Position numbers and translations under genes: made by a program
Notes under the pieces: model-generated
The model's input: the letters and a program-made list of their open reading frames with translations, nothing else
What the model was told of the DNA's origin: nothing
Database searches by the model: none
Source of the DNA: Escherichia phage OSYSP
Reading direction: 5' to 3' (one strand)
Sequence record: MF402939
Length of the DNA stretch: 64,000 bases
Shown: positions 7,178 to 53,940 of the stretch, piece by piece
Numbering within the stretch: position 1 is the stretch's first letter
Layout: each line of letters begins with the position of its first letter

Positions 7178-7179
7178 TT

Positions 7180-8318: not shown

Positions 8319-8326
8319 ATTAAATT

Positions 8327-8414: not shown

Positions 8415-8542
8415 ATATTTAGAAGCATTCAAATACTTGTTTAAACACTTTTAAATATGTTTCCAAATTAGATAACTATTATATCAAGTTTTAAGGCACT
8501 GAGCAAGTCAGATTTTGAAGAACTTGCTCAGTGCTGTATTAG

Positions 8543-8818: not shown

Positions 8819-8908
8819 TCGTTAACTCCTTCATCAATTTATATAACTATTATATCAGAAATTTAAAGTAAAAGGCAAGTACATTTTTAAAAATTCTGTT
8901 CGGAGGAG

Positions 8909-9115
8909 CTAAACTCCAGATTCTTCGGCCAAGTCTAGACTAATAAGAGTTATAGCCATAATTGCTGCACCGTGTTCTTTTTCTCCGGTGTTTTTAGCAG
9001 AGCCTATAATATCCTTAATCTGTTCGTAATAACTTTTTACTTCTTGTTCAATGCCTGCCTCGGCTATCATGCCTTTAGTCATGAATCGTTGCATGGTAAT
9101 TTCAGGATTAGCCAT
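8909..9115 (-). CDS. hypothetical protein (68 aa)
   Basis: ORF track; ATG overlaps stop of upstream small ORF (ATGGCTAA). Confidence 0.55.
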   Translation of the reverse strand: MANPEITMQRFMTKGMIAEAGIEQEVKSYYEQIKDIIGSAKNTGEKEHGAAIMAITLISLDLAEESGV

Positions 9116-9275
9116 GTTGTTTCTCCAGTTTCATTTTTAATAGTTTACAGATGAAATCAACGTCTTCATCTGTGCCTAAGTCTCTATCTTCAAGGGTCGC
9201 CTTGAAGTTTTTCGTCAATTCCATAAGGATGACTTCCCTAGAACGACGTGTTGGTGGCGGAGGAGGTCTATACAT
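9108..9275 (-). CDS. small proline-rich hypothetical protein (55 aa)
   Basis: Not in ORF track; ATG with AAGGA SD; stop overlaps next start; translation MYRPPPPPTRRSREV... Confidence 0.4.
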   Translation of the reverse strand: MYRPPPPPTRRSREVILMELTKNFKATLEDRDLGTDEDVDFICKLLKMKLEKQHG

Positions 9276-9290
9276 CTTAATTCCTTAATT

Positions 9291-9367
9291 TGGTAGGGGT
9301 GGTGGGATTCGAACCCACAAAACCTGAATTTTAAGTCCAGTACCTATGCCAATTCGATTACACCCCC
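9291..9367 (-). tRNA. tRNA, anticodon TAA (Leu UUA reader?) with short variable arm
   Basis: Acceptor GGGGGTG/CACCCCT, anticodon arm CTGGA-CTTAAAA-TTCAG, T-arm GTGGG-TTCGAAT-CCCAC, discriminator A, CCA encoded; 77 nt. Confidence 0.45.
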
Positions 9368-9474
9368 ATGTAATCAGTTTATTAGTTGATACATATTATA
9401 GCCTAAAGAAAACCCTACTACTAATCCTACGAACCAACCAATATAATAATCTTTTAATTTCACGGGTGTCAACC

Positions 9475-9654
9475 TCATTCAATATCTAGAGAAATACCAC
9501 AGGTAGGATTAATGCCTGTGCCTTTGCACGTAGGACAAACCCAGATATTACAGAATGTATCCCCTGCTTCTGCATCAGAACTTTCTCCAACTCCTAGACA
9601 GTCAGGACAGGCACATTCTTCTAGCTCTTGCTTGAGTTCTTGAAACTTAGACAT
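9475..9654 (-). CDS. small zinc-ribbon protein (59 aa, two CxxC pairs)
   Basis: Not in ORF track; ATG with AAGGA SD; translation MSKFQELKQELEECACPDCLG...CPTCKGTG. Confidence 0.45.
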   Translation of the reverse strand: MSKFQELKQELEECACPDCLGVGESSDAEAGDTFCNIWVCPTCKGTGINPTCGISLDIE

Positions 9655-9663
9655 ATAGTTTCC

Positions 9664-9852
9664 TTATTCAATTACTTTTGAGGCTTCAAGGGAGTCGATA
9701 TAGTGTACGTTTTCTACCATAATCATATAATCTGCCACTTTATCCATAGCCTGAACTTCAGAGGTAGCCCTGGCTAACCTATATCCTTTTTTATATTCAT
9801 CCGGGTATTCCCTATCTGGAATAAACACAACACAAACTAGGTATAGTTCCAC
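9664..9852 (-). CDS. hypothetical protein (62 aa)
   Basis: ORF track. Confidence 0.45.
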   Translation of the reverse strand: MELYLVCVVFIPDREYPDEYKKGYRLARATSEVQAMDKVADYMIMVENVHYIDSLEASKVIE

Positions 9853-9873
9853 TTGTAACCTCTCTAATCAAGA

Positions 9874-9951
9874 TGGTGGCTCCCCGAGGATTCGAACCTA
9901 CGTACCTTCCGGTTATGAGCCGGGTGCTCATACCATATGAGCTTGAGAACC
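9874..9951 (-). tRNA. tRNA, anticodon CAT, initiator-like anticodon arm
   Basis: Acceptor GGTTCTC/GGGAGCC, anticodon arm CCGG-CTCATAA-CCGG followed by GAAGG as in initiator tRNA; T-stem imperfect; CCA encoded. Confidence 0.45.
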
Positions 9952-9957
9952 AGAATT

Positions 9958-10046
9958 TGGCGGAAGAAGTGGGAATCGAACCCACAAGGCTATATTTCAA
10001 ACCGACAGATTAGCAATCTGCTGCAATACCGTTATGCTATTCTTCC
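9958..10046 (-). tRNA. tRNA-Ser (anticodon GCT), type II
   Basis: Acceptor GGAAGAA/TTCTTCC, anticodon arm GCAGA-TTGCTAA-TCTGT, long variable arm, T-arm GTGGG-TTCGATT-CCCAC, CCA encoded. Confidence 0.65.
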
Positions 10047-10067
10047 GAATTTATAAGATATATTATA

Positions 10068-10586
10068 TTAGAAATTTAGCTTCATAGCAAGAAAATTTTT
10101 CAAGTTTTCGGTAGACATCTCATCCACATCTACAGGAGAAACAAATCCATTTAATTGTCTAGCAAATTTTTCACCAGCAGGATCATTATCCCCAACAGCT
10201 ACCAATTTAAAAGGTAGTAATTTCAATTGCTTTAACAACGCTTTTCCTGGAGAAGAACCCAACATTGCCAGGGCTGGATAACCAGCGTTATGTAATGCTA
10301 CTGCCTTAAATACAGATTCAGCAATCAATACTACTTTTTCATCCCCAGTGAGGGTTTCTAGCCCCCATACACACTGTGTAGTAGAATAAGTAAAATATCT
10401 AGCTTCAAAGGGGCACTTACCATGACCTTTTGGAGCAGAAGGATTATACGTCTGATAGCCTCTCAACATCCCAGAGAAGTCATACAATGGGACTGTTAGC
10501 CATCCTTCCGGACTTAACCAGCAATGATACTTATCTGTATCAAACCCTCTAGATAAGAGATGTTCTGTTAGTTCATCAACAGTCAT
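10068..10586 (-). CDS. small Toprim-domain protein (about 172 aa)
   Basis: Start moved to ATG (MTVDEL...) after GAGAGAGG SD, because the first ATG of track ORF 10068-10637 lies inside the promoter; motifs IAESV...GSS...LVAVGDNDPAGEKFA match a Toprim fold. Confidence 0.6.
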   Translation of the reverse strand: MTVDELTEHLLSRGFDTDKYHCWLSPEGWLTVPLYDFSGMLRGYQTYNPSAPKGHGKCPFEARYFTYSTTQCVWGLETLTGDEKVVLIAESVFKAVALHNAGYPALAMLGSSPGKALLKQLKLLPFKLVAVGDNDPAGEKFARQLNGFVSPVDVDEMSTENLKNFLAMKLNF

Positions 10587-10616
10587 ATTAGATTCCTCTC
10601 TCAAATTTATAAATAT

Positions 10617-10645
10617 ATTATACAGAGAATTTAGCATTCAAGCAA
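10617..10645 (-). promoter_or_regulatory. sigma70-type early promoter (TTGCTT-17-TATAAT) with downstream ATAAATTTGAGAGAGG box
   Basis: Consensus hexamers and conserved downstream element on minus strand. Confidence 0.65.
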
Positions 10646-10761
10646 TTGAATTTTTTAACTTTTTAGAGGAAAATCATAGGATGCTTAAGGGTAGCAGGTA
10701 AGTGATCAGGACCGAAATTTGTGACCCCACTAAAAATCTGGGGGCAATTTTTAAAGACCCC

Positions 10762-10790
10762 TTGACATTTTCGCCGGGGTAATGTAAAGT
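10762..10790 (+). promoter_or_regulatory. sigma70-type promoter (TTGACA-17-TAAAGT) for the plus-strand low-complexity cassette
   Basis: Perfect -35 hexamer, 17-nt spacer, 4/6 -10; about 60 nt upstream of AGGAGG-ATG at 10853. Confidence 0.55.
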
Positions 10791-10852
10791 ATATGTTATG
10801 GATGAGTGATCAAAGAGACACACATTTTCTATATACTAGGAGGTGTCAAAAA

Positions 10853-11833
10853 ATGACAGAAGAAGTAGCTAAGAGTCCTGAAACCGTCGCTAGCGTAGCA
10901 GCAGAACTGCATCGTCACGAGGAATCAGATAAGAAAAAGTGGGAGAAAGTCAAAGCCTACGAGGAAAAACATCGTGAACACGATGAAGATGATGAAGAAG
11001 ATGACGATGATGAACATTGTCATAAATATGGAAAACATAAAATGCAAGAACCAGTAAACGTATTTACTAACGGCTTCCCTGGCATGGGTGCATTCCCAGC
11101 TAACGCAAGTGCTTTCGGTGGAGAAGGTATGGGTCTATTCGGAGCTATCCTAATCGGTGCTCTATTAACAGGCGGATTTGGTGGTTTTGGTGGTTTTGGT
11201 CGCGGTGCTGGCGTTGCCGCTGAAGGGACTGCTGTGGACGCGATCCTTTCTAACCAAGATACTGCAAGTATTCTAGCTGCAATCAATACTACTCGTACAG
11301 AAGCTAACCAGGGCACTGGGGCTGTTCTAAGCGCAGTAAACGGTGTGGGAGCTGCTCAAGCTGCTAGCACTCAGCAAGTTCTGACTACTGTCTACGGTAC
11401 AGGTGCTAATCTGTCAAACCAGATCTGTGCTGAAACTCGTAACGTTATTCAGGGTCAGTTCGATCTTTCTCGTCAGATGGATCAATCTTTCGCTGCTAAC
11501 CAGATAGCACGTGCTCAAGATAAGTTTGACTCTGCTCAGATTGCTTTCCAGCAGTCTATTCAGACTAACAACCAGTTCGCCGCTGTTCAGGCTCAGATGT
11601 GTGCTAACCAGAACGCTATCGAACGTCAGCTTGCTGAATGTTGCTGTGAGCTTCAGACTGCGATCGCTGGTGTAACTACTGCGCGTATTCAGGACGAACT
11701 GAATGAATGCCGTCTGCGTGAAGCAATCGCTCAAGGTAGTGGTGCAAATGGTCAGGTAATCAACCAAATCGCTGTAAGTCTTGGTGCTATCACTCAGACT
11801 CTGGCTGGTCTGCAGGCTAAACTGCCGGCTTAA
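10853..11833 (+). CDS. low-complexity protein (326 aa): acidic/His-rich N-terminus, Gly-rich hydrophobic segment, Ala/Gln/Asn-rich C-terminal domain
   Basis: Start set at ATG after AGGAGG (9-nt spacing) rather than track start 10793; segments EDDEEDDDDEHCHKYGKHK, GLFGAILIGALLTGGFGGFGGFGRGAG and CCC triplet; ctg/cgt/gct-biased codons; opposite strand to neighbours. Confidence 0.7.
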   Translation: MTEEVAKSPETVASVAAELHRHEESDKKKWEKVKAYEEKHREHDEDDEEDDDDEHCHKYGKHKMQEPVNVFTNGFPGMGAFPANASAFGGEGMGLFGAILIGALLTGGFGGFGGFGRGAGVAAEGTAVDAILSNQDTASILAAINTTRTEANQGTGAVLSAVNGVGAAQAASTQQVLTTVYGTGANLSNQICAETRNVIQGQFDLSRQMDQSFAANQIARAQDKFDSAQIAFQQSIQTNNQFAAVQAQMCANQNAIERQLAECCCELQTAIAGVTTARIQDELNECRLREAIAQGSGANGQVINQIAVSLGAITQTLAGLQAKLPA

Positions 11834-11854
11834 AATTAAGGGGAGGAGCCCATT

Positions 11855-12271
11855 ATGAGTAAATATGGTTTTGTAAACAACGGATTTAATCAACAAATGG
11901 GCTCCCAGCAGCCCGTTCCGGGTCTGGATAATCCTTACCTACAACAGTTGCAACAGCGTTTAGCAGAAGCTCAACAGATGCAGCAACAACTCCAGCAAAA
12001 CCCTGGAAGTGTGAGTCCTATGCAAATGATGCAGCAAATGAGCGGGCAGTCGCAAATGCCTCAACAAATGCAGCAACAGGTGCCTCAGCAGCAAGTTCAG
12101 CAACAAACCCAACAACCGCAGGTTTCTGCGGAAGGACAGGCAGTACTAGCCCTTTTCGAAGATTTCGCAAAGACAGAGGATGGGAAACAGCTTGTATCAC
12201 TTATGGGTAAGTTTAATAGCTTCTGCCAAAGCCAAGTTGCAAAAGCTCAAAATGGTGATAATAACTCCTAA
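11855..12271 (+). CDS. glutamine-rich low-complexity protein (138 aa)
   Basis: ORF track; AAGGGGAGGAG SD; long Q/M-rich tracts (QQMQQQLQQ...QQMQQQVPQQQVQQQTQQPQ). Confidence 0.65.
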   Translation: MSKYGFVNNGFNQQMGSQQPVPGLDNPYLQQLQQRLAEAQQMQQQLQQNPGSVSPMQMMQQMSGQSQMPQQMQQQVPQQQVQQQTQQPQVSAEGQAVLALFEDFAKTEDGKQLVSLMGKFNSFCQSQVAKAQNGDNNS

Positions 12272-12280
12272 GGAGGAATT

Positions 12281-12475
12281 ATGTGTTGCAGAAAATCTGT
12301 TTCGTGCTGCCCAATGCCTGTAGCACGTTGTTGCTCTCCAGCAATGTTTACACAAATACCGGCGTTCAATCCCTTTGCCTTTAAGCCTATTCTTATCCTG
12401 CCCCCTAGAGTAGATTTTCAGTCAAGATTGGCCTCCCGTATGGGTGGTTGCTGTAACAAGAGTATATGGTTCTAA
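12281..12475 (+). CDS. small cysteine-rich protein (64 aa; CC doublets)
   Basis: ORF track; AAGGAGG SD; MCCRKSVSCCPMPVARCCSP...GGCCNKS; followed by an intrinsic terminator. Confidence 0.55.
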   Translation: MCCRKSVSCCPMPVARCCSPAMFTQIPAFNPFAFKPILILPPRVDFQSRLASRMGGCCNKSIWF

Positions 12476-12490
12476 AGAACCAAACAATAA

Positions 12491-12526
12491 AGCCCCTAGT
12501 CGAAAGACTTAGGGGCTTTTTCTTTT
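12491..12526 (+). terminator. rho-independent terminator ending the plus-strand cassette
   Basis: Hairpin AGCCCCTAG-loop-CTAGGGGCT followed by a T-run. Confidence 0.7.
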
Positions 12527-12536
12527 GCCTTAAATA

Positions 12537-12571
12537 CAGAAAAGCCCGCGCTCTCGGAGAAAACGCGGGCT
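12537..12571 (-). terminator. rho-independent terminator after the SPFH gene
   Basis: Hairpin GCCCGCG-loop-CGCGGGC followed by TTTT on minus strand; convergent with the previous terminator. Confidence 0.6.
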
Positions 12572-12595
12572 TAGTTCGAAGATTACGTGTAACTA

Positions 12596-13543
12596 TTACT
12601 TGTTACGCATATCCATGATCATTTGACCATCATAGCCAGTGCCAACTACAGTCTGAGGTACACCACCTTGATATTTCTGAGCACGAATCATCTCAACTTC
12701 CAGTTGTTTCCAACGAATCATCTCAGGAGTAATGGTACGTTGCAGTGCGGCGTTAGCTTCAGCTTCTTTCTTAGCTGCGTACAGTTTAGCATCTGCGTCA
12801 CGTTCATTAGCAATAGCTTGGTTATTGCGAGCTTCACGATCTGCTTCTGCTTGTTTAACTTTTTGCTGTGCTTCCTGTTCAACGCGGGCAAGTTCAGCTT
12901 TCGCAGCGTTAACTTGCTCTTCACGAACTTTGGTATTCTGTACCTGTTCCATGATTACCGGTGGCAAAGTAATATCTTGAAGAAACACCTGCTTAACTGT
13001 GTAACCATATGGGCGTGCATACTCTTCAACTTCCTGTTGAATTGCAGTTTGCAATTGAGCCTGAATTTTAGCATCAAACAAATCTTGTGCTTTAGGTACA
13101 GACTTACCAAACTCACAAATAGTAGATAGTAATTTTTCAGTTACATATTTGTCTAACGCTTGATCCTGAGTACCTGCATTAATACGGTTAATCGGTGCCT
13201 TAGAACCATCAAACTGCAACATAACAGTCAGATCAACAGTGGATTTAAACTTATCCTGACTAGGAACCTGAAGTTTATCTAATTTTACAGCAATATCTTT
13301 TGTACTAAAAGTATCGAAAGATGCAAACGGGTTTACAATATGGAAACCAGGTAATACTGGATTAGGGTCTACTTTACCCAGGAATGTTTGAGTTTTAACC
13401 GTACCATCAGAAACAATAGTATATGAATTAAAAGCTAGGATTAAACCTGCTAAACCAACTACAGCACCAATACCCCAACGTTTAATAGTGCGAATTACTT
13501 TTTGCTCAGAAGTCAGTTCTTTCATATTTTTAGTATTAAACAT
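12596..13543 (-). CDS. SPFH/band-7 (HflK/HflC-like) membrane protein
   Basis: 315 aa; N-terminal hydrophobic helix (IGAVVGLAGLILAF), then SPFH-like core and long Ala/Glu/Gln-rich coiled coil; AAGGA SD. Confidence 0.6.
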   Translation of the reverse strand: MFNTKNMKELTSEQKVIRTIKRWGIGAVVGLAGLILAFNSYTIVSDGTVKTQTFLGKVDPNPVLPGFHIVNPFASFDTFSTKDIAVKLDKLQVPSQDKFKSTVDLTVMLQFDGSKAPINRINAGTQDQALDKYVTEKLLSTICEFGKSVPKAQDLFDAKIQAQLQTAIQQEVEEYARPYGYTVKQVFLQDITLPPVIMEQVQNTKVREEQVNAAKAELARVEQEAQQKVKQAEADREARNNQAIANERDADAKLYAAKKEAEANAALQRTITPEMIRWKQLEVEMIRAQKYQGGVPQTVVGTGYDGQMIMDMRNK

Positions 13544-13580
13544 ATATTTCCTTTGTTTTAGTTACAGTTAATAAAATTGA

Positions 13581-13652
13581 CCGAGGTGACAGGATTCGAA
13601 CCTGCATAAAGGAATTTAGAAGACTCCTGCCTCTCCCTTAGACTACACCCCG
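13581..13652 (-). tRNA. tRNA-Arg (anticodon TCT), CCA not encoded
   Basis: Acceptor CGGGGTG/CACCTCG, anticodon arm GGAGT-CTTCTAA-ATTCC, T-arm GCAGG-TTCGAAT-CCTGT. Confidence 0.55.
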
Positions 13653-14152
13653 TTTAAGTATTTTTAAGAACTCTCGTAAAAACTCTTAAAAATACAGACG
13701 ATACCGGGAGAGTCATAAGTCTCACTCATTAAGTATTTCAAGACAAAATACAGTAACGTCTATTATTTTCCAGTTTAAGTCAGGGTGACTTAGTGGTTAT
13801 GTCCTGCGGTATATTGAGGACTCGGTTAGGCTTGGGGTCATGACTTCCCGCCTTTTGCTGCTACTCAACAGGAGTTATCGCGAATTACCTGTGCTATTGT
13901 GCACCATTAGTGACATCTCTCATGTCAGCATTTCCCACTTTGTGGATAGCTTGAAAAACTACTCCGATATGGAGAAAGAACTTCACTATCCTAGAATACC
14001 TTCTAAAGTTCTTCTTTAGCCTGGACATAGTTAAATCGTAATAAAACTATTCAGCAGACTGGTTGGTTAGTCTGGAACCAACTACCGCGTGGTTTAGGCA
14101 GTGCGCAACTAACCTCGGAAGCTTTTACGTTAAAAGCATCAGTTATCCAGTT

Positions 14153-14230
14153 CTTACCGACCGTAGGATTCGAACCTACATCTTCCACCAGTTACGGCTT
14201 GATAATACCAATTATACTAGGACGGCAGTG
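14153..14230 (-). tRNA. tRNA-like element, non-canonical (no foldable anticodon stem)
   Basis: T-arm GTAGG-TTCGAAT-CCTAC, D-loop-like AATTGGTA, acceptor GCCGTCC/GGTCGGT with one mismatch; no anticodon arm can be formed. Confidence 0.3.
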
Positions 14231-29108: not shown

Positions 29109-29142
29109 AGCCAGGTTGCTAGTCGACCTGGCTTTTATTTTA
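29109..29142 (+). terminator. rho-independent terminator after nrdD
   Basis: 8-bp stem AGCCAGGT/ACCTGGCT followed by TTTTATTTTATTT. Confidence 0.65.
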
Positions 29143-38144: not shown

Positions 38145-39116
38145 ATGACTAATGTAAAAGAATTTATTAAACGCTGTCAAGAAGCATATTATCAAGGCAT
38201 GTCTTTAATCTCTGATGAGGAGTATGATCGCCTGGTAAAACGCTTCCCGTTAGAGGAAGAGATCGGGCCTAAGGGTGATATTCCACATCTATATCGTATG
38301 TATTCTTTACAGAAAGTTTACTATAACCGTGGAGATAAACCACCATTCAATCCTTTAGGTCAGGTGGAAACCGATAAGTTAGATGGTTGTGCAATTTCTC
38401 TGCTATATATTAATGGCGAATTTGTTCAAGCACTAACTCGTGGTAATGGTATTCTGGGGAATGATGTCACAAGCAACGTAAGATTGCTGAACATTCCTAA
38501 AAAGATTTCCCAAAAAGTACCTACTCAAATCACTGGTGAAGTTCTAATTACAAAAGAAGTAGAAAATAAACGTAACTTTGCCTCTGGTGCTATTAACCTC
38601 AAAGATAGCGATGCTTTCGTACAACGCATTGGAGAAGGCGGTTTAATCTTTGTTGCTTATGGTATCCAGTGTTCTGCTGAATCTGTAGGTATTACAGAAG
38701 CATATTTAAAAGATATGCTTTGGCTAGAGAATGAGAACTTCTTAACAGTCGTTAATGTGCGTTCCTTTTTTAAATGGATTCCGACGGACGGTAAAGTTGT
38801 TCGTATTAATGACAACAACAAATTCTTCCGCGAAGGCTGGACTAATAAATTCCCTCGTGGAGCATTCGCTATTAAAGAGGATGAAGAAGGCGAGATTACA
38901 ACTCTTACTAAAGTTGAATGGCAGGTAGGGGCTTCTGGTAAAGTAACTCCAGTTGGTTATTTCGAACCGGTAATTATTGATGATGCTACGATTGTTAAAG
39001 CGACTCTTAATAACGTTGATTATATTAACTCTCTCGATCTAGAGATCGGTTGCCAGATTCGAGTGATTCGTGCTGGTGGTGTAATCCCGTGCATAGTAGA
39101 GCGAGTATATGATTAA
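38145..39116 (+). CDS. NAD-dependent DNA ligase, N-terminal adenylation/OB-fold part (split ligase subunit A)
   Basis: 323 aa; adenylation-lysine motif KLDGCA and LigA-like N-terminal pattern; ends before Zn-finger/HhH/BRCT modules. Confidence 0.7.
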   Translation: MTNVKEFIKRCQEAYYQGMSLISDEEYDRLVKRFPLEEEIGPKGDIPHLYRMYSLQKVYYNRGDKPPFNPLGQVETDKLDGCAISLLYINGEFVQALTRGNGILGNDVTSNVRLLNIPKKISQKVPTQITGEVLITKEVENKRNFASGAINLKDSDAFVQRIGEGGLIFVAYGIQCSAESVGITEAYLKDMLWLENENFLTVVNVRSFFKWIPTDGKVVRINDNNKFFREGWTNKFPRGAFAIKEDEEGEITTLTKVEWQVGASGKVTPVGYFEPVIIDDATIVKATLNNVDYINSLDLEIGCQIRVIRAGGVIPCIVERVYD

Positions 39117-39166
39117 TACATAACCCTTTGCTACCCATCTACCATATCGGAATTATAAAGTGGTTA

Positions 39167-39195
39167 TTGACATTTTCGCCGCTTAGGTATATACT
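39167..39195 (+). promoter_or_regulatory. sigma70 promoter (TTGACA-17-TATACT) between ligase parts
   Basis: Hexamers read directly. Confidence 0.55.
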
Positions 39196-39259
39196 ATTAT
39201 CATTCAGTTGAGGGATAGAAAGTTATGGCGAGGGTAAGCAAAGTTAGTTAAAATTGTAG

Positions 39260-39289
39260 TTGCTAAATGCTTAAATACTTGCTATAATA
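39260..39289 (+). promoter_or_regulatory. sigma70 promoter (TTGCTA-18-TATAAT) between ligase parts
   Basis: Consensus hexamers. Confidence 0.6.
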
Positions 39290-39318
39290 TTTATATAAAT
39301 TGATAAGGAAGAAATTTG

Positions 39319-40095
39319 ATGAAAATCGAAATTCCAACACAATGTCCCTCTTGTGGTTCTAAGCTAGATCTTGTCAACGGACAATTATTCTGTCGTAATA
39401 AGTCCAACTGTCCAGCGCAATCAAGTAAGTTAATTGAGAACTTCTGTACAAAAATGAAGTTAAAGGGCTTTGGCCCGAAAACTATTGAAAAGCTGGAGCT
39501 GACTAAGATTTCAGAACTATTTTACCTAACCGAAGAAGATTTGGTTAGAGCCGTGGGTAGCAAGGTTGCCGCTAAGTTAATTAGCGAATTAAATACTAAA
39601 GTTCGTGGAGACATTGACTTTGGTTCAGTTCTCGGTTCTTTAGGAATCCCTCTAATTGGAGAGGTTGCAGCAAAGAAATTGTCCCAAAATTGCACCAGTT
39701 TTCAAGATGTGAGAGCTGATGGCAAAGCTGGAGAAAACTATAAAGCCTGGCTAAATTCCCCACAAGGCAAGGATGTTATCGAATTACCGTGGAAATTCTC
39801 AAATGGTATTAAGGGTGCTAAAGCTGACATCATTACTGATGGTCTAGTAGCCCAACCAAACGGAATAACGGTGTGTATTACCGGATCTTTGCAAGATTTT
39901 GCAAATCGAACGGATGCAACAAACTATTTAGAAGGTCTAGGATACACGGTTAAGAAATCCGTTACCAAAGACGTCAAATACCTAATCTGTGAGGATGAAT
40001 CGAAGCGTTCTTCCTCATCTTATAAGAAAGCCGAAACGAATGGGATAGAAATCCTGTCGATTAAAGAACTATTGGAGAAAAATAATAATGTCTAA
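39319..40095 (+). CDS. NAD-dependent DNA ligase, C-terminal part (Zn-finger, HhH, BRCT-like; split ligase subunit B)
   Basis: Start at ATG after AAGGAAG; N-terminal CPSCGS...C..KSNCP zinc finger as found after the OB-fold in LigA. Confidence 0.65.
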   Translation: MKIEIPTQCPSCGSKLDLVNGQLFCRNKSNCPAQSSKLIENFCTKMKLKGFGPKTIEKLELTKISELFYLTEEDLVRAVGSKVAAKLISELNTKVRGDIDFGSVLGSLGIPLIGEVAAKKLSQNCTSFQDVRADGKAGENYKAWLNSPQGKDVIELPWKFSNGIKGAKADIITDGLVAQPNGITVCITGSLQDFANRTDATNYLEGLGYTVKKSVTKDVKYLICEDESKRSSSSYKKAETNGIEILSIKELLEKNNNV

Positions 40096-40855
40096 ACTGA
40101 ACTGGAACGTAGAAGGTGTAACCGAGTCTCTGAAAGCAAAAGCCACTGCTCTGGGTGTTGCTGTAATCTCTCAAGAACAAGTAGCTGCTATCGCTGCTGA
40201 ACTGGCTGCTGAAACTGGCAAAGACGTTACCGCTCGCTCTGTTGGCTCTAAGCTGCGTAAAGAAGGTTTCGAAGTACAGAAAGCTAACGAAGTACAGAAA
40301 TCTCCGTGGACTCCTGAGCAGGAAGCTGAACTGGTTGATTTCCTGAACGCTCATGCTGGTCAGTATACCTATGCTGAAATCGCTGCTGCTGTAGCTGGTG
40401 GTCAATTTGGTGCTAGGCAGGTACAGGGTAAGATCCTGAGTCTGGAAATGACCGCTTCTGTTAAACCAACTGAAAAAGCAGCTGCTGTTCGTTCCTTCAC
40501 TCCTGATGAAGAAACTGATTTTGTTAATCAGGTTGTTGCTGGTGCTACTATTGAAGCTATCGCTGCTCACTTCGGTCGTAATATCAAGCAGATCCGTGGT
40601 AAAGCTCTGAGCCTGCTTCGTGAAGGTCGTATCGCTGCTATGCCGGTACAGGAAACTTCAAGTGCTAAAACTCGTGAAGATCTGCTAGAAGGTCTGGATC
40701 TGGTTAACATGACCGTTGCTGAGATCGCTGAGAAAACTGGTAAGTCTGAGCGTGGTGTTAAATCTATGTTGTCTCGTCGTGGTCTGGTTGCTAAGGACTA
40801 TGATGGTGCCGCTAAGCGTGCTAAACTGGATGCAAAAGCTGCGGCTGCTGAATAA
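40088..40855 (+). CDS. hypothetical protein (255 aa) with three internal HTH-like repeats
   Basis: ORF track; GGAGAAAAA SD; repeated segments (EIAAAV..., IEAIAAHFGRNIKQIRGKALSLLREGRI, VAEIAEKTGKSERGVKSMLSRRGLV); strongly biased codon usage. Confidence 0.7.
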   Translation: MSKLNWNVEGVTESLKAKATALGVAVISQEQVAAIAAELAAETGKDVTARSVGSKLRKEGFEVQKANEVQKSPWTPEQEAELVDFLNAHAGQYTYAEIAAAVAGGQFGARQVQGKILSLEMTASVKPTEKAAAVRSFTPDEETDFVNQVVAGATIEAIAAHFGRNIKQIRGKALSLLREGRIAAMPVQETSSAKTREDLLEGLDLVNMTVAEIAEKTGKSERGVKSMLSRRGLVAKDYDGAAKRAKLDAKAAAAE

Positions 40856-40874
40856 TCTGGTAAATTAAACCTAA

Positions 40875-40905
40875 GGGGAGGGGGCTATGCTCCTTCCCCT
40901 TTTTG
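40875..40905 (+). terminator. strong rho-independent terminator (10-bp stem, loop CTATG, TTTTT)
   Basis: GGGGAGGGGG-CTATG-CTCCTTCCCC-TTTTT; the first ATG of track ORF 40887 lies in the loop. Confidence 0.7.
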
Positions 40906-40937
40906 CATTTAGAAGGCACGAAAGCGTGCAAAGGAGA

Positions 40938-42410
40938 ATGACCTTGTTTAACGTGCAAGCTGTAGTGTTGAAGATGCTTCTAGCTTCCGAACAGAAGCAA
41001 ATAGCATTGGAAACATTCTCAAAACTGCATAAAGATCATTTTAATGACGCTTTCTCCTCAATTTACCAAGCCGTCCAGAATTATTATAAAAAATATAACA
41101 CAATGCCGTCCATTGACGCACTGATGCTTGAGGCTAATAGGAACGCCCGCCTTTCTCAAGCTCTAGTCGTTTTAGCTAACACTCAAATTCCAGAAGTTAG
41201 CATGGAACAGGCACTTGAAGTCCTAGAGGCCGAGTATACACAGGATTTATTCCTGAAGCTTCTAGAAACAGACGTGCTTCAAGATTTAACAATGCTGGAT
41301 CAGGGAGAAATTCTTAACCGAGTTGCCTCCCTTCACTTAAAATTAGAAGAGAAAGTAACGAATACTGGAAAAGTATTCAACGCAGATAATATGCGTATTT
41401 TCCAGAGAGAAGAAGATACCAAACTGAACTTAATCGCTCTTGGTATTTGTAATGAGTTCGACGCTCAAATTGGTTTAGCTCGCACAGAAACGTTACTGCT
41501 TGGTGGTTGGCGTGGTACTGGTAAATCCATTATCTGTTCAAACATACAGGTTCAGCAATATTTGAATGGGGATATTGCTCCATACTTCTCAATTGAGATG
41601 AAAGAACATGAAGTATTTAGACGTAATCTAGCCATGTTAGCTGGTGTATCAGCACTAGCAATGCGTAATAATACTCTAGAAGGTGCAGCTCTGTTGAGAT
41701 TAGCCAGAACTAGAGCTAGGATGTTTAACGGTGGTGAAGAGCTCTTCGATAACTTCGTTAAACAGTATACAATGGCTAAGATGAGTGATTTCTACGACAT
41801 GGAGAGTAAGCTAATAGAAGGGTATGAGCTACATACTCCTATGATTATTGTTTATGACCCTGAGCTGTCTATTACAACAGTTGACGTAGAATTAAATAAA
41901 TTAGTTGCTAGATATGGGGATAAAGTTACAGTAGCTTTACTGGACTATATTAACCAAACCCGACTTCCAGACTCTAAAACCATTGATATGTATGACTGGA
42001 AAGAACAGATGGTTGTTAGCTCGTCTTTCAAATCTATCTGCCAGAAACATAACGTGGCTGGTGTAGCTCCTTACCAGATTGATCAAGATGGTAGAACACG
42101 TATGTCAAAAGGGATTCTTGATTCCGCAGACATGGCTGCTAATCTTAATGCTGCAAAAGCTGATAATGGTCAAGGTGCTATTATGTTTGACTTCGTTAAG
42201 ACTCGTTCTTCTGATAGCGTGAAGTTTATGCCTAAAATGAACTGGGAAACCCTGCGGATGGATAACACTACCAACCTAGCAATGGAAGATATATCTCAAA
42301 TGGAAGCTGAGTTCGTTATCCCTATTGAGAAGGATAAGCCGGCTCAATCTAAACGTGCTAAGAAAGACAAAGCTGAAAATTCAACAGGTGAACAGGCCAG
42401 CGATATATGA
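40938..42410 (+). CDS. DnaB-like replicative helicase
   Basis: Walker A GGWRGTGKS and RecA-like core; start uncertain (ATG 40938 after AAAGGAGA, or ATG 40887 inside the terminator hairpin). Confidence 0.7.
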   Translation: MTLFNVQAVVLKMLLASEQKQIALETFSKLHKDHFNDAFSSIYQAVQNYYKKYNTMPSIDALMLEANRNARLSQALVVLANTQIPEVSMEQALEVLEAEYTQDLFLKLLETDVLQDLTMLDQGEILNRVASLHLKLEEKVTNTGKVFNADNMRIFQREEDTKLNLIALGICNEFDAQIGLARTETLLLGGWRGTGKSIICSNIQVQQYLNGDIAPYFSIEMKEHEVFRRNLAMLAGVSALAMRNNTLEGAALLRLARTRARMFNGGEELFDNFVKQYTMAKMSDFYDMESKLIEGYELHTPMIIVYDPELSITTVDVELNKLVARYGDKVTVALLDYINQTRLPDSKTIDMYDWKEQMVVSSSFKSICQKHNVAGVAPYQIDQDGRTRMSKGILDSADMAANLNAAKADNGQGAIMFDFVKTRSSDSVKFMPKMNWETLRMDNTTNLAMEDISQMEAEFVIPIEKDKPAQSKRAKKDKAENSTGEQASDI

Positions 42411-43297
42411 GTAGAATAACAGAACTACTTGATCTGAAAGGCATTGAATATAAAGACACAGGTGGGGACATCCTCATCTGTTGTCTCAATCCAGATCATG
42501 ACGATAAACACCCAAGTTTGCGTATTGACCCTGAAACAGGTATTATGCACTGCTTGAGTTGTGGCTTCGGTAAAGGTATACCGAGCATTTACCATTATTT
42601 TAATGAGACTCAGTACCGACAGTCCCCAAGGCTATCGCAAGTACGTAAAAAGATTTCAGAGATTAGGAATGGATCAACGAATCTTGCAATTCCTGAATCT
42701 GCTTACCTTTTCGAAGGTGATTTCCGAGGTATAAGTTCTAAGACCTTGAAGAAATATTTTGCTTTCCAACACCAAGCAGACTGGGAAGGCAGAATTGTAT
42801 TCCCAATCACAGATGCTGTTGGACGCAATATCCTATTTTTGGGTCGTTCTATAAACAGTTCTGCCCCTCCTAAATACTTAGTAAAACCAAAACAAGTTTC
42901 ACCGCCAATTTTTCCTGTACGATATAATACTCCAGTCCTTATTCTAGTTGAAGGCATCTTTGATATGCTGAACCTAGAGGATAATGGTATAGACTATGCT
43001 TCTTGCTGCTTTGGTACACATCAGTTTACTTCGGATAACATTGCAGATAAGTTCAGTCCTTATATTATCGCCGGTGTAAAAGTTGTTGTTATCTTACTAG
43101 ATAATGATGCTTCTGGTAATAAAGCTGCCCAGGCTCTAGCAAAATTAATTCGTACAAAAACACGTTTAACACCTGTAGTTGCTAACTTCTTACTTCCAGA
43201 GGGTAAGGATCCTGGTGATTTAAATAAAGAAGAAGTCGATACGTTAGCAAAACGTATTGAAATTTTAGTTGCTGAATCACTTAAAGATTTGGTATAA
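42407..43297 (+). CDS. DnaG-like DNA primase (zinc-binding plus Toprim)
   Basis: 296 aa; zinc motif CCLNPDHDDKHPS...HCLSCGFGKG; Toprim motifs ILVEGIFDML and LLDNDASGNKAAQ; ATGA overlap with helicase. Confidence 0.8.
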   Translation: MSRITELLDLKGIEYKDTGGDILICCLNPDHDDKHPSLRIDPETGIMHCLSCGFGKGIPSIYHYFNETQYRQSPRLSQVRKKISEIRNGSTNLAIPESAYLFEGDFRGISSKTLKKYFAFQHQADWEGRIVFPITDAVGRNILFLGRSINSSAPPKYLVKPKQVSPPIFPVRYNTPVLILVEGIFDMLNLEDNGIDYASCCFGTHQFTSDNIADKFSPYIIAGVKVVVILLDNDASGNKAAQALAKLIRTKTRLTPVVANFLLPEGKDPGDLNKEEVDTLAKRIEILVAESLKDLV

Positions 43298-43359: not shown

Positions 43360-45927
43360 TTGAAAATCGCAGTAGTTGATAAAGCTCTAAATAACACTCG
43401 TTACGATAAACATTTCCAGCTATACGGCGAGGAAGTTGATGTATTCCATATGTGTAACGAGAAGTTGTCCGGTCGTTTGCTCAAAAAGCATATTACTATC
43501 GGGACTCCGGAAAACCCATTTGACCCGAATGATTATGATTTTGTTATACTGGTAGGTGCCGAACCTTTTCTGTACTTTGCAGGTAAGAAAGGTATTGGTG
43601 ATTATACCGGTAAACGTGTAGAGTATAATGGATATGCTAACTGGATTGCTAGTATCAGCCCAGCCCAGTTACACTTTAAACCTGAAATGAAACCAGTTTT
43701 TGATGCAACAGTAGAGAATATCCACGATATTATCAATGGTCGTGAGAAGATTGCAAAAGCTGGTGATTACCGTCCTATTACTGACCCTGACGAGGCAGAA
43801 GAATATATCAAGATGGTGTATAATATGGTTATCGGACCTGTCGCATTCGACTCCGAAACCTCAGCACTATACTGTCGAGATGGTTATCTGCTTGGTGTTT
43901 CTATATCTCACCAAGAGTATCAGGGTGTATATATTGATTCTGATTGTCTCACAGAGGTTGCAGTATATTATCTCCAGAAAATTCTAGATAGTGAAAACCA
44001 CACTATTGTTTTTCACAACTTGAAGTTTGATATGCACTTTTATAAGTACCATCTGGGACTTACTTTTGATAAAGCACATAAAGAACGCAGGCTCCATGAT
44101 ACCATGTTGCAGCACTATGTTCTAGATGAACGTCGTGGTACTCATGGCTTGAAATCTCTAGCAATGAAGTATACCGATATGGGTGACTATGACTTCGAAC
44201 TAGATAAGTTCAAAGATGATTACTGCAAAGCACATAAAATCAAGAAAGAAGATTTCACCTATGATTTAATTCCATTTGATATTATGTGGCCGTATGCTGC
44301 GAAAGATACAGATGCTACTATACGTTTGCACAACTTCTTTTTACCAAAAATTGAGAAGAATGAAAAACTTTGCAGTCTGTACTATGATGTTTTGATGCCT
44401 GGTTGCGTATTCTTGCAACGTGTTGAGGATCGTGGAGTACCTATCTCTATTGATCGTTTGAAAGAAGCTCAGTATCAATTGACCCATAATTTGAATAAAG
44501 CCCGTGAGAAACTGTACACTTATCCAGAAGTTAAACAGCTAGAACAAGGTCAGAATGAAGCATTTAACCCGAACTCTGTTAAGCAACTTCGTGTTCTTCT
44601 GTTCGATTATGTTGGTTTGACTCCAACTGGTAAGTTAACAGATACGGGTGCAGATTCTACAAACGCAGAAGCTCTGAATGAGTTGGCAACCCAGCATCCT
44701 ATTGCTAAAACTCTTCTAGAGATTCGTAAGCTGACTAAGCTGATCTCTACTTATGTTGAGAAGATTCTACTGAGTATTGATGCAGATGGTTGCATTCGTA
44801 CTGGTTTCCATGAACATATGACTACTTCTGGTCGTCTGAGTTCTTCTGGTAAACTGAACCTGCAACAGCTACCTCGTGATGAATCTATTATTAAGGGTTG
44901 TGTAGTTGCACCACCTGGATACCGTGTAATCGCGTGGGACTTAACAACTGCGGAAGTTTACTATGCTGCTGTTCTATCTGGTGATAGAAATATGCAACAA
45001 GTATTTATCAACATGAGAAATGAACCCGATAAATACCCTGACTTCCACTCTAACATCGCCCACATGGTATTTAAATTGCAATGTGAACCTCGTGATGTTA
45101 AGAAGCTGTTCCCAGCTCTACGTCAGGCAGCTAAGGCAATTACCTTTGGTATTTTGTATGGTTCTGGCCCGGCTAAAGTAGCACATTCTGTTAACGAAGC
45201 ATTGCTAGAGCAAGCAGCCAAAACTGGTGAACCGTTTGTTGAATGTACTGTTGCAGATGCTAAAGAGTACATTGAGACTTACTTTAGTCAATTCCCACAG
45301 CTTAAGCGTTGGATTGATAAGTGCCACGATCAGATCAAGAATCATGGGTTTATCTATAGTCACTTTGGTCGTAAACGTCGTCTGCATAATATCCATTCCG
45401 AAGACCGTGGCGTTCAGGGTGAAGAAATTCGTTCTGGATTTAACGCAATCATTCAGTCTGCTTCTTCTGATAGTCTCCTTTTAGGTGCTGTAGATGCAGA
45501 TAATGAGATCATTTCTCTTGGCTTAGAACAAGAGATGAAGATTGTTATGCTGGTTCATGACTCCGTAGTTGCTATTGTTCGCGAGGATTTGATCGACCAG
45601 TACAATGAAATCCTGATTCGTAATATTCAGAAAGACCGTGGTATCAGTATTCCTGGCTGTCCTATTGGTATTGATTCAGATTCTGAAGCTGGAGGTTCTC
45701 GTGACTATTCTTGTGGTAAGATGAAGAAACAGCATCCATCAATTGCTTGTATTGATGATGACGAATATACTCGTTACGTTAAAGAAATGCTACTTGATGC
45801 AGATTTCGAGTATAAGAAATTAGCTGCAATGGATAAAGAACATCCAGACCACAGCAAGTACAAGGATGATAAGTTTATTGCTGTATGTAAAGATCTGGAT
45901 AACGTGAAAAGGATTCTCGGTGCTTAA
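43360..45927 (+). CDS. family A DNA polymerase with 3'-5' exonuclease domain
   Basis: 855 aa; TTG start after GAGGAG; exo motifs FDSETSALY and HNLKFDMHF; pol motifs RQAAKAITFGILYGSGPAKVA and VHDSVV. Confidence 0.85.
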   Translation: MKIAVVDKALNNTRYDKHFQLYGEEVDVFHMCNEKLSGRLLKKHITIGTPENPFDPNDYDFVILVGAEPFLYFAGKKGIGDYTGKRVEYNGYANWIASISPAQLHFKPEMKPVFDATVENIHDIINGREKIAKAGDYRPITDPDEAEEYIKMVYNMVIGPVAFDSETSALYCRDGYLLGVSISHQEYQGVYIDSDCLTEVAVYYLQKILDSENHTIVFHNLKFDMHFYKYHLGLTFDKAHKERRLHDTMLQHYVLDERRGTHGLKSLAMKYTDMGDYDFELDKFKDDYCKAHKIKKEDFTYDLIPFDIMWPYAAKDTDATIRLHNFFLPKIEKNEKLCSLYYDVLMPGCVFLQRVEDRGVPISIDRLKEAQYQLTHNLNKAREKLYTYPEVKQLEQGQNEAFNPNSVKQLRVLLFDYVGLTPTGKLTDTGADSTNAEALNELATQHPIAKTLLEIRKLTKLISTYVEKILLSIDADGCIRTGFHEHMTTSGRLSSSGKLNLQQLPRDESIIKGCVVAPPGYRVIAWDLTTAEVYYAAVLSGDRNMQQVFINMRNEPDKYPDFHSNIAHMVFKLQCEPRDVKKLFPALRQAAKAITFGILYGSGPAKVAHSVNEALLEQAAKTGEPFVECTVADAKEYIETYFSQFPQLKRWIDKCHDQIKNHGFIYSHFGRKRRLHNIHSEDRGVQGEEIRSGFNAIIQSASSDSLLLGAVDADNEIISLGLEQEMKIVMLVHDSVVAIVREDLIDQYNEILIRNIQKDRGISIPGCPIGIDSDSEAGGSRDYSCGKMKKQHPSIACIDDDEYTRYVKEMLLDADFEYKKLAAMDKEHPDHSKYKDDKFIAVCKDLDNVKRILGA

Positions 45928-53902: not shown

Positions 53903-53940
53903 AAAAACCCCAGCGGATTTTGTCCGCTGGGGTTTCTTTT
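53903..53940. terminator. bidirectional rho-independent terminator between convergent early and tail modules
   Basis: CCCCAGCGGA-loop-TCCGCTGGGG hairpin flanked by A-run on the left and T-run on the right. Confidence 0.75.

What the first reader, a model, noticed from the sequence alone, without database searches (positions are those of the whole stretch)
40875..40945. Intrinsic terminator hairpin overlapping the first in-frame ATG of the DnaB-like helicase
A 10-bp GC-rich stem plus TTTTT terminates the upstream gene, and the first ATG of the helicase ORF (40887) lies in its loop. The next in-frame ATG (40938) follows AAAGGAGA with very short spacing. Helicase expression may depend on terminator read-through or on a structure-controlled start.
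Basis: seen in the sequence. Interest (0 to 1): 0.35.

Follow-up and report, generated by a model that had tools for sequence, protein, structure and literature searches.

The report
Conserved terminator before phage T5 helicase
This is an ordinary but strongly conserved transcription terminator that sits between a very highly expressed DNA-binding-protein gene and the helicase gene of a T5-like phage; the ATG in its loop is a decoy that many database records wrongly use as the helicase start, and the real start is most likely a TTG 57 bases further on.

Summary
The window is a T5-like phage (99.5% identical to T5). The hairpin is real: 13 bp at 40873-40901, about -22 kcal/mol, followed by TTTTT. 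The first in-frame ATG (40887) lies in its loop, and the second ATG (40938) follows GGAG by 1 nt. Comparable hairpins were absent from 30 shuffles of the window.

The same stem-plus-T-run follows the D5 gene in every Demerecviridae lineage sampled, each with a different stem sequence. 98% of cells are paired and 10 of 13 pairs changed on both sides. It is a conserved intrinsic terminator, already annotated in some relatives.

The helicase start is neither ATG. In all lineages the protein begins M-[F/Y/I]-N-V-Q at the codon matching TTG 40944, which lies 7 nt after GGAG. That codon is ATG, GTG or TTG in relatives, often with in-frame stops just upstream. RefSeq T5 and most database entries use the loop ATG (507 aa), which is probably wrong.

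No promoter fits between terminator and start (15-48 nt). Helicase and primase are therefore most likely expressed by read-through. Published RNA-seq of a close relative shows a roughly 20-25-fold drop from D5 to the next genes.

Verdict: read-through is supported, a structure-controlled start is not. Low novelty.

The parts
39144..39311 (+). Early promoters P-K28b and P-K28a upstream of ligB, the nearest promoters upstream of the helicase
   Evidence: Annotated in T5 records AY692264 and NC_005859 (coordinates transferred to the window). The consensus scan finds TTGACA-17-TATACT at 39167-39195 and TTGCTA-17-TATAAT with TG at 39260-39288. In Bas33, mRNA rises about 5-fold from ligA to ligB.
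40088..40855 (+). D5 gene (255-aa DNA-binding protein / transcription factor), very highly expressed, ending in TAA
   Evidence: ORF list and annotation of relatives. Pfam gives a sigma-70 region-4-like HTH. The fraction of E. coli-preferred codons is 0.83, against 0.43-0.55 in neighbouring genes. It has the highest TPM among the eleven genes of this region that were looked up in Bas33 and is among the major proteins by spectral count in phiR2-01 (PMC8624392).
40873..40901 (+). Terminator stem-loop, 13 bp, loop TAT
   Evidence: -22.4 kcal/mol. Present in 14 of 14 distinct D5-helicase spacers across the family. Covariation: 98.3% of cells paired, 10 of 13 pairs changed on both sides, 0 of 500 shuffles reach this. 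The sense strand is always more stable than the antisense because of G.U pairs.
40900..40910 (+). T-rich tract (TTTTTGCATTT) of the terminator
   Evidence: A T-rich tail follows the stem in all lineages.
40887..40889 (+). Decoy ATG in the hairpin loop, with the SD-like GGAGG (40877-40881) in the 5' arm. It is the annotated helicase start in RefSeq T5 and most records.
   Evidence: the 507-aa form is on 141 contigs. Not conserved: relatives have in-frame stops downstream of the equivalent position. GSW6 has a +1 T that puts it out of frame. Opening energy is 23.9 kcal/mol.
40916..40929 (+). Small second hairpin GCACG-AAAG-CGTGC just 5' of the ribosome-binding site; role unknown
   Evidence: -7.2 kcal/mol, z -2.7. 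Identical in phiR2-01 and Pantoea AAS21. Enterobacter phage KKP_3711 has ACGCA-AGCA-TGCGT at the same place. There is no family-wide consensus by RNAalifold, it is not significant in four other lineages, and it is absent in Vibrio phages.
40931..40936 (+). Shine-Dalgarno sequence AAGGAG of the helicase
   Evidence: Annotated as the RBS in Lindwurm and phiR2-01. Duplex with the 16S 3' end is -8.7 kcal/mol.
40938..40940 (+). Second in-frame ATG, 1 nt after GGAG; an unlikely start
   Evidence: Spacing. Absent at this position in Pantoea, Klebsiella, Proteus and Vibrio relatives and in the HNH-insertion variants. Used as the start in a few records (490 aa).
40944..42410 (+). DnaB-like replicative helicase (D6), most likely starting at TTG 40944 (488 aa)
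   Evidence: The N-terminus M-[F/Y/I]-N-V-Q-A-V-V-L-K aligns from residue 1 in all lineages, with invariant N3, Q5 and A6. The start codon at this position is ATG, GTG or TTG in relatives. It is an ATG in VSe12 and Bas33, where the spacer is replaced. Spacing after GGAG is 7 nt. Pfam gives DnaB_C.
42407..43297 (+). DNA primase, overlapping the helicase stop by 4 nt; same transcription unit
   Evidence: TPM equals that of the helicase in Bas33.

Best explanation
The hairpin plus T-run at 40873-40910 is a factor-independent (intrinsic) transcription terminator that ends most transcripts of the abundantly expressed D5 gene. These transcripts start at the strong early promoters P-K28a/b upstream of ligB.

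A minority of polymerases read through the terminator. They provide the only mRNA for the low-abundance replication enzymes downstream, the DnaB-like helicase and the primase. The terminator therefore acts as a fixed intra-operon attenuator that sets a large D5-to-helicase expression ratio.

Translation of the helicase starts at TTG 40944, 7 nt after the AAGGAG Shine-Dalgarno sequence and outside the hairpin. A weak start codon lowers output further. The ATG in the loop (40887) and the ATG at 40938 are not the start. The loop ATG, with an SD-like GGAGG in the stem, is a by-product of the stem sequence that misleads gene callers.

Shown here: the structure, its conservation and covariation, the homologous N-terminus, and the absence of a promoter-like site.

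Inferred: termination and read-through in this phage (the nearest experimental support comes from a relative with a variant hairpin), and use of the TTG.
For: Identity of the locus:
- The window is 99.5% identical to T5, and ligB-D5-helicase-primase-pol synteny holds across Demerecviridae.

The hairpin:
- It folds at -22.4 kcal/mol and is the only centroid structure in context.
- Comparable sites: 5 in the window, 0 in 30 shuffles.
- All 14 distinct D5-helicase spacers sampled (Tequintavirus, Epseptimavirus, Klebsiella, Pantoea, Proteus, three Vibrio groups, IMG/VR contigs) have a 12-14-bp stem (9 bp in the HNH variant), -12 to -25 kcal/mol, plus a T-rich tail, 11-39 nt after the D5 stop.
- Covariation in 9 distinct sequences: 98.3% of cells paired, 10 of 13 pairs with changes on both sides, 0 of 500 shuffles as high, slid controls 53-76% paired.
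- The only differences between T5 and phiR2-01 or Gostya9 in the whole spacer are 4 pair-preserving substitutions in the stem.
- 12 of the 13 stems compared (all the canonical ones) contain 1-3 G.U pairs; all 13 are more stable in the sense RNA than in the antisense.

No promoter:
- No promoter-like site lies on the + strand between 39288 and 41314.
- The distance from hairpin to start is 41-48 nt in enterobacterial phages and 15-22 nt in Vibrio phages.

Expression data for Bas33/HildyBeyeler at 20 min, TPM in two replicates (PMC13250531 Dataset S1):
- ligA 1966/1649
- ligB 10850/7448
- D5 22868/16641
- next gene (HNH) 860/680
- helicase 1103/882
- primase 1050/867

D5 codon bias is 0.83 against 0.43-0.55 in neighbours.

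The start codon:
- tblastn and the alignment begin at residue 1 of the TTG-started protein in all lineages.
- The codon at that position is ATG (Klebsiella, Proteus, Vibrio, KKP_3711, L037, L040), GTG (L038) or TTG (T5, phiR2-01, Pantoea).
- In-frame stops lie 0-36 nt upstream in those lineages.
- VSe12, SHSML-45 and Bas33, whose spacer is replaced by an HNH gene, have ATG at exactly this codon.
- SD spacing is 6-7 nt for the TTG, 0-1 nt for ATG 40938 and 15 nt for GTG 40953. Opening energy is 23.9 kcal/mol for ATG 40887 against 12.3 for the TTG.
- The neighbouring DNA polymerase gene also uses TTG, 7 nt after GAGGAG.
- BB1, Lindwurm and phiR2-01 records already annotate the TTG start. BB1, Lindwurm, AKFV33 and AKM_ECS annotate a terminator here.
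Against: - No 3'-end mapping, in vitro termination or N-terminal protein data exist for this phage or for T5 with the canonical spacer.
- The RNA-seq comes from a relative whose spacer carries a different, shorter hairpin. It is gene-level, was analysed without strand specificity, covers one time point, and cannot separate termination from differential mRNA decay.
- The U-tract is short: 5 U, two of them formally in the stem, then GCAUUU. Efficiency therefore cannot be predicted.
- ATG is a stronger initiator than TTG, and within Tequintavirus and Epseptimavirus the ATG 40938 is as invariant as everything else in the spacer. Some initiation there cannot be excluded.
- The promoter scan covers only sigma-70 consensus. 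T5 modifies host RNA polymerase, so an unconventional promoter cannot be formally excluded.
Confidence: 0.75

Rival explanations
1. The helicase really starts at the loop ATG 40887 (507 aa, as in RefSeq T5), and the hairpin gates its translation as a structure-controlled start.
For: - It is the first in-frame ATG.
- A strong SD-like GGAGG lies 4-5 nt upstream, with a duplex of -11.7 kcal/mol.
- It is the annotation in NC_005859, AY692264 and most database entries.
Against: - The SD and ATG are both buried in a -22 kcal/mol stem, with an opening cost of 23.9 kcal/mol.
- The 19-aa extension has no counterpart in any other lineage, and in-frame stops lie 0-36 nt upstream of the conserved start in those lineages.
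- The HNH-insertion variants lack it entirely yet encode an identical helicase.
- GSW6 has a frameshifting extra T between this ATG and the helicase.
- The 57 nt show zero variation at all codon positions, whereas 38% of helicase third positions vary. That is not a coding pattern.
Confidence: 0.03
2. The helicase starts at ATG 40938 (490 aa, MTLFNVQ...).
For: - It is an ATG immediately downstream of AAAGGAGA.
- It is used in the OSYSP and GSW6 annotations.
- It is invariant in the genus.
Against: - Only 0-1 nt separate the SD-antiSD duplex from the ATG. From my own knowledge of E. coli initiation, about 4-5 nt is the minimum.
- There is no ATG at this position in Pantoea AAS21, which keeps the TTG, nor in Klebsiella, Proteus, Vibrio or KKP_3711.
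- VSe12 and Bas33 have no 'MT' extension.
Confidence: 0.1
3. The hairpin acts mainly as a 3' stabiliser or processing barrier of the D5 mRNA rather than as a terminator. D5 and helicase are fully co-transcribed, and the expression difference comes from differential decay.
For: - Gene-level RNA-seq cannot separate termination from decay.
- An AU-rich stretch and a small 5' hairpin (40916-40929) follow the stem. Together they could define a processing site and a protected 5' end.
Against: - A T-rich tract directly after the stem is kept in every lineage. Termination needs this; a decay barrier does not.
- The geometry (12-14 bp G/C-rich stem, 3-5-nt loop, U-tract) is canonical for intrinsic terminators.
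- The two roles are not mutually exclusive.
Confidence: 0.1
4. The helicase and primase have their own promoter between D5 and the helicase, so read-through is irrelevant.
For: T5 early genes have many promoters, and the consensus scan is crude.
Against: - No promoter-like hit lies there, and there is no TAnnnT hexamer between 40900 and 40930.
- Only 42 nt are available here and 15-22 nt in Vibrio relatives.
- In Bas33 the genes after the terminator stay at a flat low level.
Confidence: 0.04

Closest known systems
Intrinsic (Rho-independent) transcription terminators of E. coli and its phages
   Same: A G/C-rich stem-loop followed by a U-tract, placed shortly after a stop codon on the coding strand. 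This very site is already annotated as 'terminator' in the GenBank records of BB1, Lindwurm, AKFV33 and AKM_ECS.
   Different: Nothing essential. The U-tract is on the short side, and the 5' arm is almost pure purine and contains an SD-like GGAGG.
Internal attenuating terminator of the E. coli rpsU-dnaG-rpoD operon, which lies between an abundant protein gene and the primase gene (from my own knowledge, not tested here)
   Same: A partial terminator inside an operon separates a highly expressed gene from a replication enzyme needed in small amounts. The downstream gene also has weak translation signals, here a TTG start.
   Different: Unrelated sequences and a phage context. Read-through efficiency has not been measured here.
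Start codons sequestered in hairpins as translational switches, for example in RNA phage and T4 genes (from my own knowledge)
   Same: An ATG with a good SD is buried in a stable stem-loop.
   Different: Here the buried ATG is not the conserved start of the protein, so there is nothing to switch.

Membership tests
Intrinsic transcription terminator | Stable G/C-rich RNA stem-loop (about 5-14 bp, loop 3-8 nt) | tested here: met
   13 bp, 8 G-C pairs, loop 3 nt, -22.4 kcal/mol.
Intrinsic transcription terminator | U-rich tract immediately 3' of the stem | tested here: met
   TTTTTGCATTT at 40900-40910. T-rich tails occur in all 14 spacers. The contiguous run is only 5 T.
Intrinsic transcription terminator | Lies downstream of a gene end on the transcribed strand, and works as RNA in that sense | tested here: met
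   It lies 17 nt after the D5 stop (11-39 nt in relatives). G.U pairs make the sense RNA 1-9 kcal/mol more stable than the antisense in all 13 stems.
Intrinsic transcription terminator | Structure kept by selection (compensatory changes) | tested here: met
   98.3% of cells paired, 10 of 13 pairs changed on both sides, 0 of 500 shuffles as high, slid controls 53-76%.
Intrinsic transcription terminator | RNA polymerase actually releases transcripts there | not testable with these tools
   The only indirect evidence is a 20-27-fold TPM drop after D5 in Bas33, which carries a variant hairpin.
Regulated attenuator or riboswitch (terminator versus antiterminator) | A competing alternative structure or a known leader family | tested here: not met
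   No Rfam match reaches threshold. The hairpin is the only centroid structure. No second complement of either arm was seen in the sequence read here, 40500-41300 (by eye, not searched systematically). SD-to-3'-arm pairing is only 6 bp.
Hairpin-gated translation start | The sequestered codon is the authentic, conserved initiation codon | tested here: not met
   The homologous N-terminus begins 57 nt downstream. Stops or frameshifts lie between the two positions in relatives.
DnaB-like (SF4) replicative helicase, the downstream gene | DnaB C-terminal ATPase domain | tested here: met
   PF03796 DnaB_C, E = 7.6e-9, above the curated cut-off.

The most novel reading that the evidence does not exclude
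The terminator is not a fixed leak but a controlled gate. Read-through, or processing at the AU-rich stretch with the small hairpin 40916-40929 acting as a protective 5' cap, would be modulated during infection by a phage factor such as D5 itself or T5-modified RNA polymerase. This would time or dose helicase-primase synthesis. The absolute invariance of all 88 spacer bases in about 400 genomes would then reflect a protein- or RNase-recognition element in addition to the terminator and the ribosome-binding site.
Probability: 0.1. Interest if true: 0.45.

Novelty: already known. Interest (0 to 1): 0.15.

Why it matters
Biologically this is textbook operon design: a partial terminator, and probably a weak start codon, keep a catalytic replication enzyme about 20-fold or more below a stoichiometric DNA-binding protein.

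The practical value is in curation. The reference T5 records (NC_005859 D6/T5.119 and AY692264 T5p117) and most entries in this protein cluster carry a 19-residue N-terminal extension, MLLPLFAFRRHESVQRRMT. It is most likely translated terminator and spacer sequence. Four different starts are in circulation for an essentially identical gene: 507, 490, 488 and 485 aa.

Anyone expressing, modelling or targeting the T5 replicative helicase should use the 488-aa form. This includes RBS-directed knock-down libraries built on the reference annotation. The family-wide conservation of the D5-helicase attenuator and the invariant spacer are small additions to T5 biology.

Tried and rejected
- Rfam, permissive on 40000-42000 and at gathering threshold on the whole window: only tRNAs, nothing at the site.
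- RNAalifold on the region between terminator and start in 7 lineages: no consensus pairs. Single-sequence folds of the small second hairpin were significant only in T5 and Pantoea. It is therefore reported as an aside, not as part of the mechanism.
- A long-range stem enclosing the SD and start, seen in one MFE fold: it changes with the length of sequence folded and is absent from the centroid. Rejected.
- In-frame GTG 40926 (used in the Pantoea AAS21 record) and GTG 40953 (485-aa TPA entry) as starts. The first lies in the 3' arm of hairpin 2 and has no start codon at the equivalent position in Klebsiella or Proteus. The second is 15 nt from the SD and is GTC, GTA or GTT in relatives. Rejected.
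- Opposite-strand or DNA-level cruciform function: the antisense hairpin is weaker in all 13 stems (by only 1-2 kcal/mol in two) and has no T-run (sequence). Rejected.
- Literature: no paper in the held library maps T5 transcript ends at this site. The CRISPRi-ART, Eco2 retron and DRT9 papers gave no usable per-gene data. Supplements of the phiR2-01 proteomics paper are not held.
- The MAFFT alignment of the hairpins was out of structural register. It was replaced by a covariance-model alignment.
Full report
**What the window is.** The region 40600-41400 is 99.5% identical to phage T5, and 436 T5-like phage records match it at 90% identity or more. The local gene order is:
- ligA, 38145-39116
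- ligB, 39316-40095
- D5 DNA-binding protein, 40088-40855
- DnaB-like helicase, ORF 40887-42410
- primase, 42407-43297
- DNA polymerase, 43360-45927

The same order, ligB-D5-helicase-primase-pol, holds in every Demerecviridae lineage I fetched. Those were Yersinia phiR2-01, Klebsiella Riker, Pantoea AAS21, Proteus phage 1, and Vibrio Ceto and 70E35-1.

**The observation.**
- The stem-loop AAGGGGAGGGGGC-TAT-GCTCCTTCCCCTT lies at 40873-40901, followed by TTTTT (40900-04) and GCATTT.
- ATG 40887 sits in the loop and is in frame with the helicase.
- AAAGGAGA (40930-37) is followed by ATG 40938, 1 nt after GGAG.
- The hairpin folds at -22.4 kcal/mol. It is the only element kept in the centroid structure of a 126-nt context, and the terminator scan detects it.
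- A strict scan of my own finds five such sites in the 64-kb window and none in 30 dinucleotide-preserving shuffles.

**Is the hairpin functional?** I collected 50 loci around helicase homologues. They gave 23 distinct upstream segments.
- Every spacer in which D5 precedes the helicase (14 distinct) carries a 12-14-bp stem of -17.5 to -24.6 kcal/mol. The exception is a 9-bp, -12 kcal/mol stem in the HNH-insertion variant.
- Each stem has a T-rich tail and begins 11-39 nt after the D5 stop.
- The stem sequences differ between lineages.
- On a covariance-model alignment of nine distinct hairpins, 98.3% of cells form standard pairs and 10 of 13 pairs show changes on both sides. None of 500 shuffles reaches these values, and sliding the 3' partner drops pairing to 53-76%.
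- T5 and phiR2-01 or Gostya9 differ in the whole 88-nt spacer only by four substitutions, all in the stem and all pair-preserving.
- Every canonical stem has 1-3 G.U pairs, and all 13 stems compared are more stable as sense RNA than as antisense. This points to an RNA-level function on the coding strand.
- Several GenBank records of close relatives already annotate this site as a terminator. Neither T5 reference record annotates a terminator at this site.

**Where the helicase starts.** Four starts are in circulation for essentially the same gene:
- ATG 40887, 507 aa. This is used in RefSeq T5 D6 and AY692264 T5p117. This exact sequence occurs on 141 contigs, and 10 of 15 listed cluster members have this length.
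- ATG 40938, 490 aa.
- TTG 40944, 488 aa.
- GTG 40953, 485 aa.

Comparative evidence points to 40944.
- tblastn hits from 92% down to 34% identity begin at residue 1-2 of the TTG-started protein.
- The alignment shows M-[F/Y/I]-N-V-Q-A-V-V-L-K with N3, Q5 and A6 invariant.
- The codon at that position is ATG in the Klebsiella, Proteus, Vibrio, KKP_3711, L037 and L040 lineages. It is GTG in L038 and TTG in T5, phiR2-01 and Pantoea.
- In the non-T5 lineages, in-frame stops lie 0-36 nt upstream.
- Three phages (VSe12, SHSML-45 and HildyBeyeler/Bas33) have the whole spacer replaced by an HNH homing-endonuclease gene. They carry ATG-TTT-AAC-GTG-CAA at exactly this codon.
- GSW6 has an extra T in the T-run, which puts the loop ATG out of frame. 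A homopolymer sequencing error cannot be excluded.
- The SD-antiSD duplex ends 6-7 nt before the TTG, 0-1 nt before ATG 40938 and 15 nt before GTG 40953. Opening the initiation region costs 23.9 kcal/mol for ATG 40887 against 12.3 for the TTG.
- The DNA polymerase gene next door also starts with TTG, 7 nt after GAGGAG.
- The 57 nt between the loop ATG and the TTG do not evolve like coding sequence. They have zero variable sites in 24 distinct sequences, whereas 38% of helicase third positions vary.

**How the helicase is transcribed.**
- The nearest promoters upstream are P-K28b/a in front of ligB (annotation; consensus hits at 39167-39195 and 39260-39288).
- No promoter-like site occurs on the + strand between 39288 and 41314.
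- The spacer after the hairpin has no TAnnnT hexamer and is only 42 nt long. In the Vibrio lineages it is 15-22 nt, which leaves no room for a promoter plus leader. Transcripts reaching the helicase must therefore pass the terminator.

The closest experimental data are RNA-seq of the Tequintavirus Bas33 at 20 min (PMC13250531, Dataset S1). TPM values in two replicates were:

| Gene | Replicate 1 | Replicate 2 |
|---|---|---|
| ligA | 1966 | 1649 |
| ligB | 10850 | 7448 |
| D5 | 22868 | 16641 |
| HNH | 860 | 680 |
| helicase | 1103 | 882 |
| primase | 1050 | 867 |
| pol | 1754 | 1455 |

- This is a 25-27-fold drop immediately after D5, followed by a flat low level.
- Caveats: Bas33 carries the variant hairpin AAGGAGAAC-TTCG-GTTCTCCTT. 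The analysis was gene-level and not strand-specific. Decay cannot be separated from termination.

D5 is clearly built for high expression. Its fraction of E. coli-preferred codons is 0.83, against 0.43-0.55 for its neighbours (the list of preferred codons comes from my own knowledge). It was also among the major proteins by spectral count in phiR2-01 preparations (PMC8624392).

**Mechanism.** Most transcripts from P-K28a/b end at the hairpin and give abundant ligB-D5 mRNA. A few percent read through and encode helicase and primase, whose genes overlap by 4 nt. The helicase initiates at a weak TTG codon with a good, unstructured SD.

The logic matches the internal terminator of the E. coli rpsU-dnaG-rpoD operon (my own knowledge, not tested). 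I found no sign of a regulated switch. There is no Rfam family and no competing structure. SD pairing with the CUCCUU of the 3' arm spans only 6 bp.

The terminator and the read-through dependence are supported. The structure-controlled start is not supported, because neither ATG is the likely start.

**Novelty and score.** This is an ordinary intrinsic terminator in one of the best-known phages, already annotated in relatives, so I score interest at 0.15. The useful by-product is a curation point: the reference T5 helicase entry and most copies in databases probably carry a spurious 19-residue N-terminal extension derived from the terminator and spacer.

Two things remain unexplained. The whole 88-nt spacer is invariant across about 400 genomes. 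A small GC hairpin at 40916-40929 lies just 5' of the SD, with an apparently compensated counterpart in Enterobacter phage KKP_3711. Both leave a small chance (about 0.1) of an additional processing or regulatory element.

Noticed in passing
window 40856-40943: The whole 88-nt D5-helicase spacer has 0 variable sites among 24 distinct Tequintavirus/Epseptimavirus sequences. Flanking coding sequence has 12.6-15.5% variable sites, and 32-38% at third positions. 409 of 426 phage records are at least 99% identical over 40856-40960. The terminator and RBS account for only about half of these bases.
   Followed up: partly
window 40916-40929: A small hairpin GCACG-AAAG-CGTGC (-7.2 kcal/mol) lies directly 5' of the helicase SD. 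It is identical in phiR2-01 and Pantoea AAS21. Enterobacter phage KKP_3711 has ACGCA-AGCA-TGCGT at the same place, with 3 of 5 pairs changed on both sides. It is not significant in Klebsiella, Proteus and other lineages, and absent in Vibrio phages. It may be a 5' stabiliser after processing; this was not tested.
   Followed up: partly
L055 1868-2508; L056 4257-4897; L010: In VSe12, HildyBeyeler (Bas33) and SHSML-45 an HNH homing-endonuclease gene replaces the entire spacer from the D5 stop to the helicase start. It brings its own shorter hairpin (AAGGAGAAC-TTCG-GTTCTCCTT), and its stop overlaps helicase codons 2-3. The motif TTAGAAGGC occurs in both the canonical and the replaced spacers.
   Followed up: partly
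window 42407-42410 (helicase/primase junction): The window lacks the 534-bp HNH endonuclease gene (hegJ, T5.120/T5p118) that sits between helicase and primase in both T5 reference records. Here the two genes overlap directly, as in BB1 and phiR2-01.
   Followed up: no
window 40088-40855: The D5 gene has a codon usage unlike its neighbours. The fraction of E. coli-preferred codons is 0.83 against 0.43-0.55, GC is 0.48 against 0.38-0.40, 16 of 19 Leu codons are CTG and 11 of 13 Arg codons are CGT. Pfam finds a sigma-70 region-4-like HTH at residues 204-230.
   Followed up: partly
window 43360 and 39316: The DNA polymerase ORF starts with TTG, 7 nt after GAGGAG, the same arrangement as proposed for the helicase. 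Records disagree on the ligB start: TTG 39316 or ATG 39319.
   Followed up: no
window 29109-29133 (+), 53905-53935 (+), 25854-25825 (-), 12572-12542 (-): Four other strong terminator-like hairpins (10-14 bp, -15 to -25 kcal/mol, T-rich tails). Together with the D5 terminator they are the only five in the window that pass a strict scan; none passes in shuffled sequence.
   Followed up: no
window 899-14226 (- strand): This is the T5 tRNA cluster: 23 tRNA genes by ARAGORN. Rfam adds two more tRNA-like hits, at 9877-9951 and 14155-14226.
   Followed up: no
L008 3780-3821, L043 3780-3821, L045 3809-3854, L009 2908-2949: The covariance model of the D5 terminator also picks up similar purine-arm hairpins after the primase gene (Ceto-like Vibrio phages) and between helicase and primase (Vibrio 70E35-1). 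This suggests a shared terminator style within these genomes.
   Followed up: no
L046 and L049 (IMG/VR contigs, 36-39% identical helicase): In these two distant relatives the gene upstream of the helicase is not D5, and no terminator hairpin precedes the helicase within 160 nt. The arrangement is therefore not universal outside the sampled Demerecviridae core.
   Followed up: no
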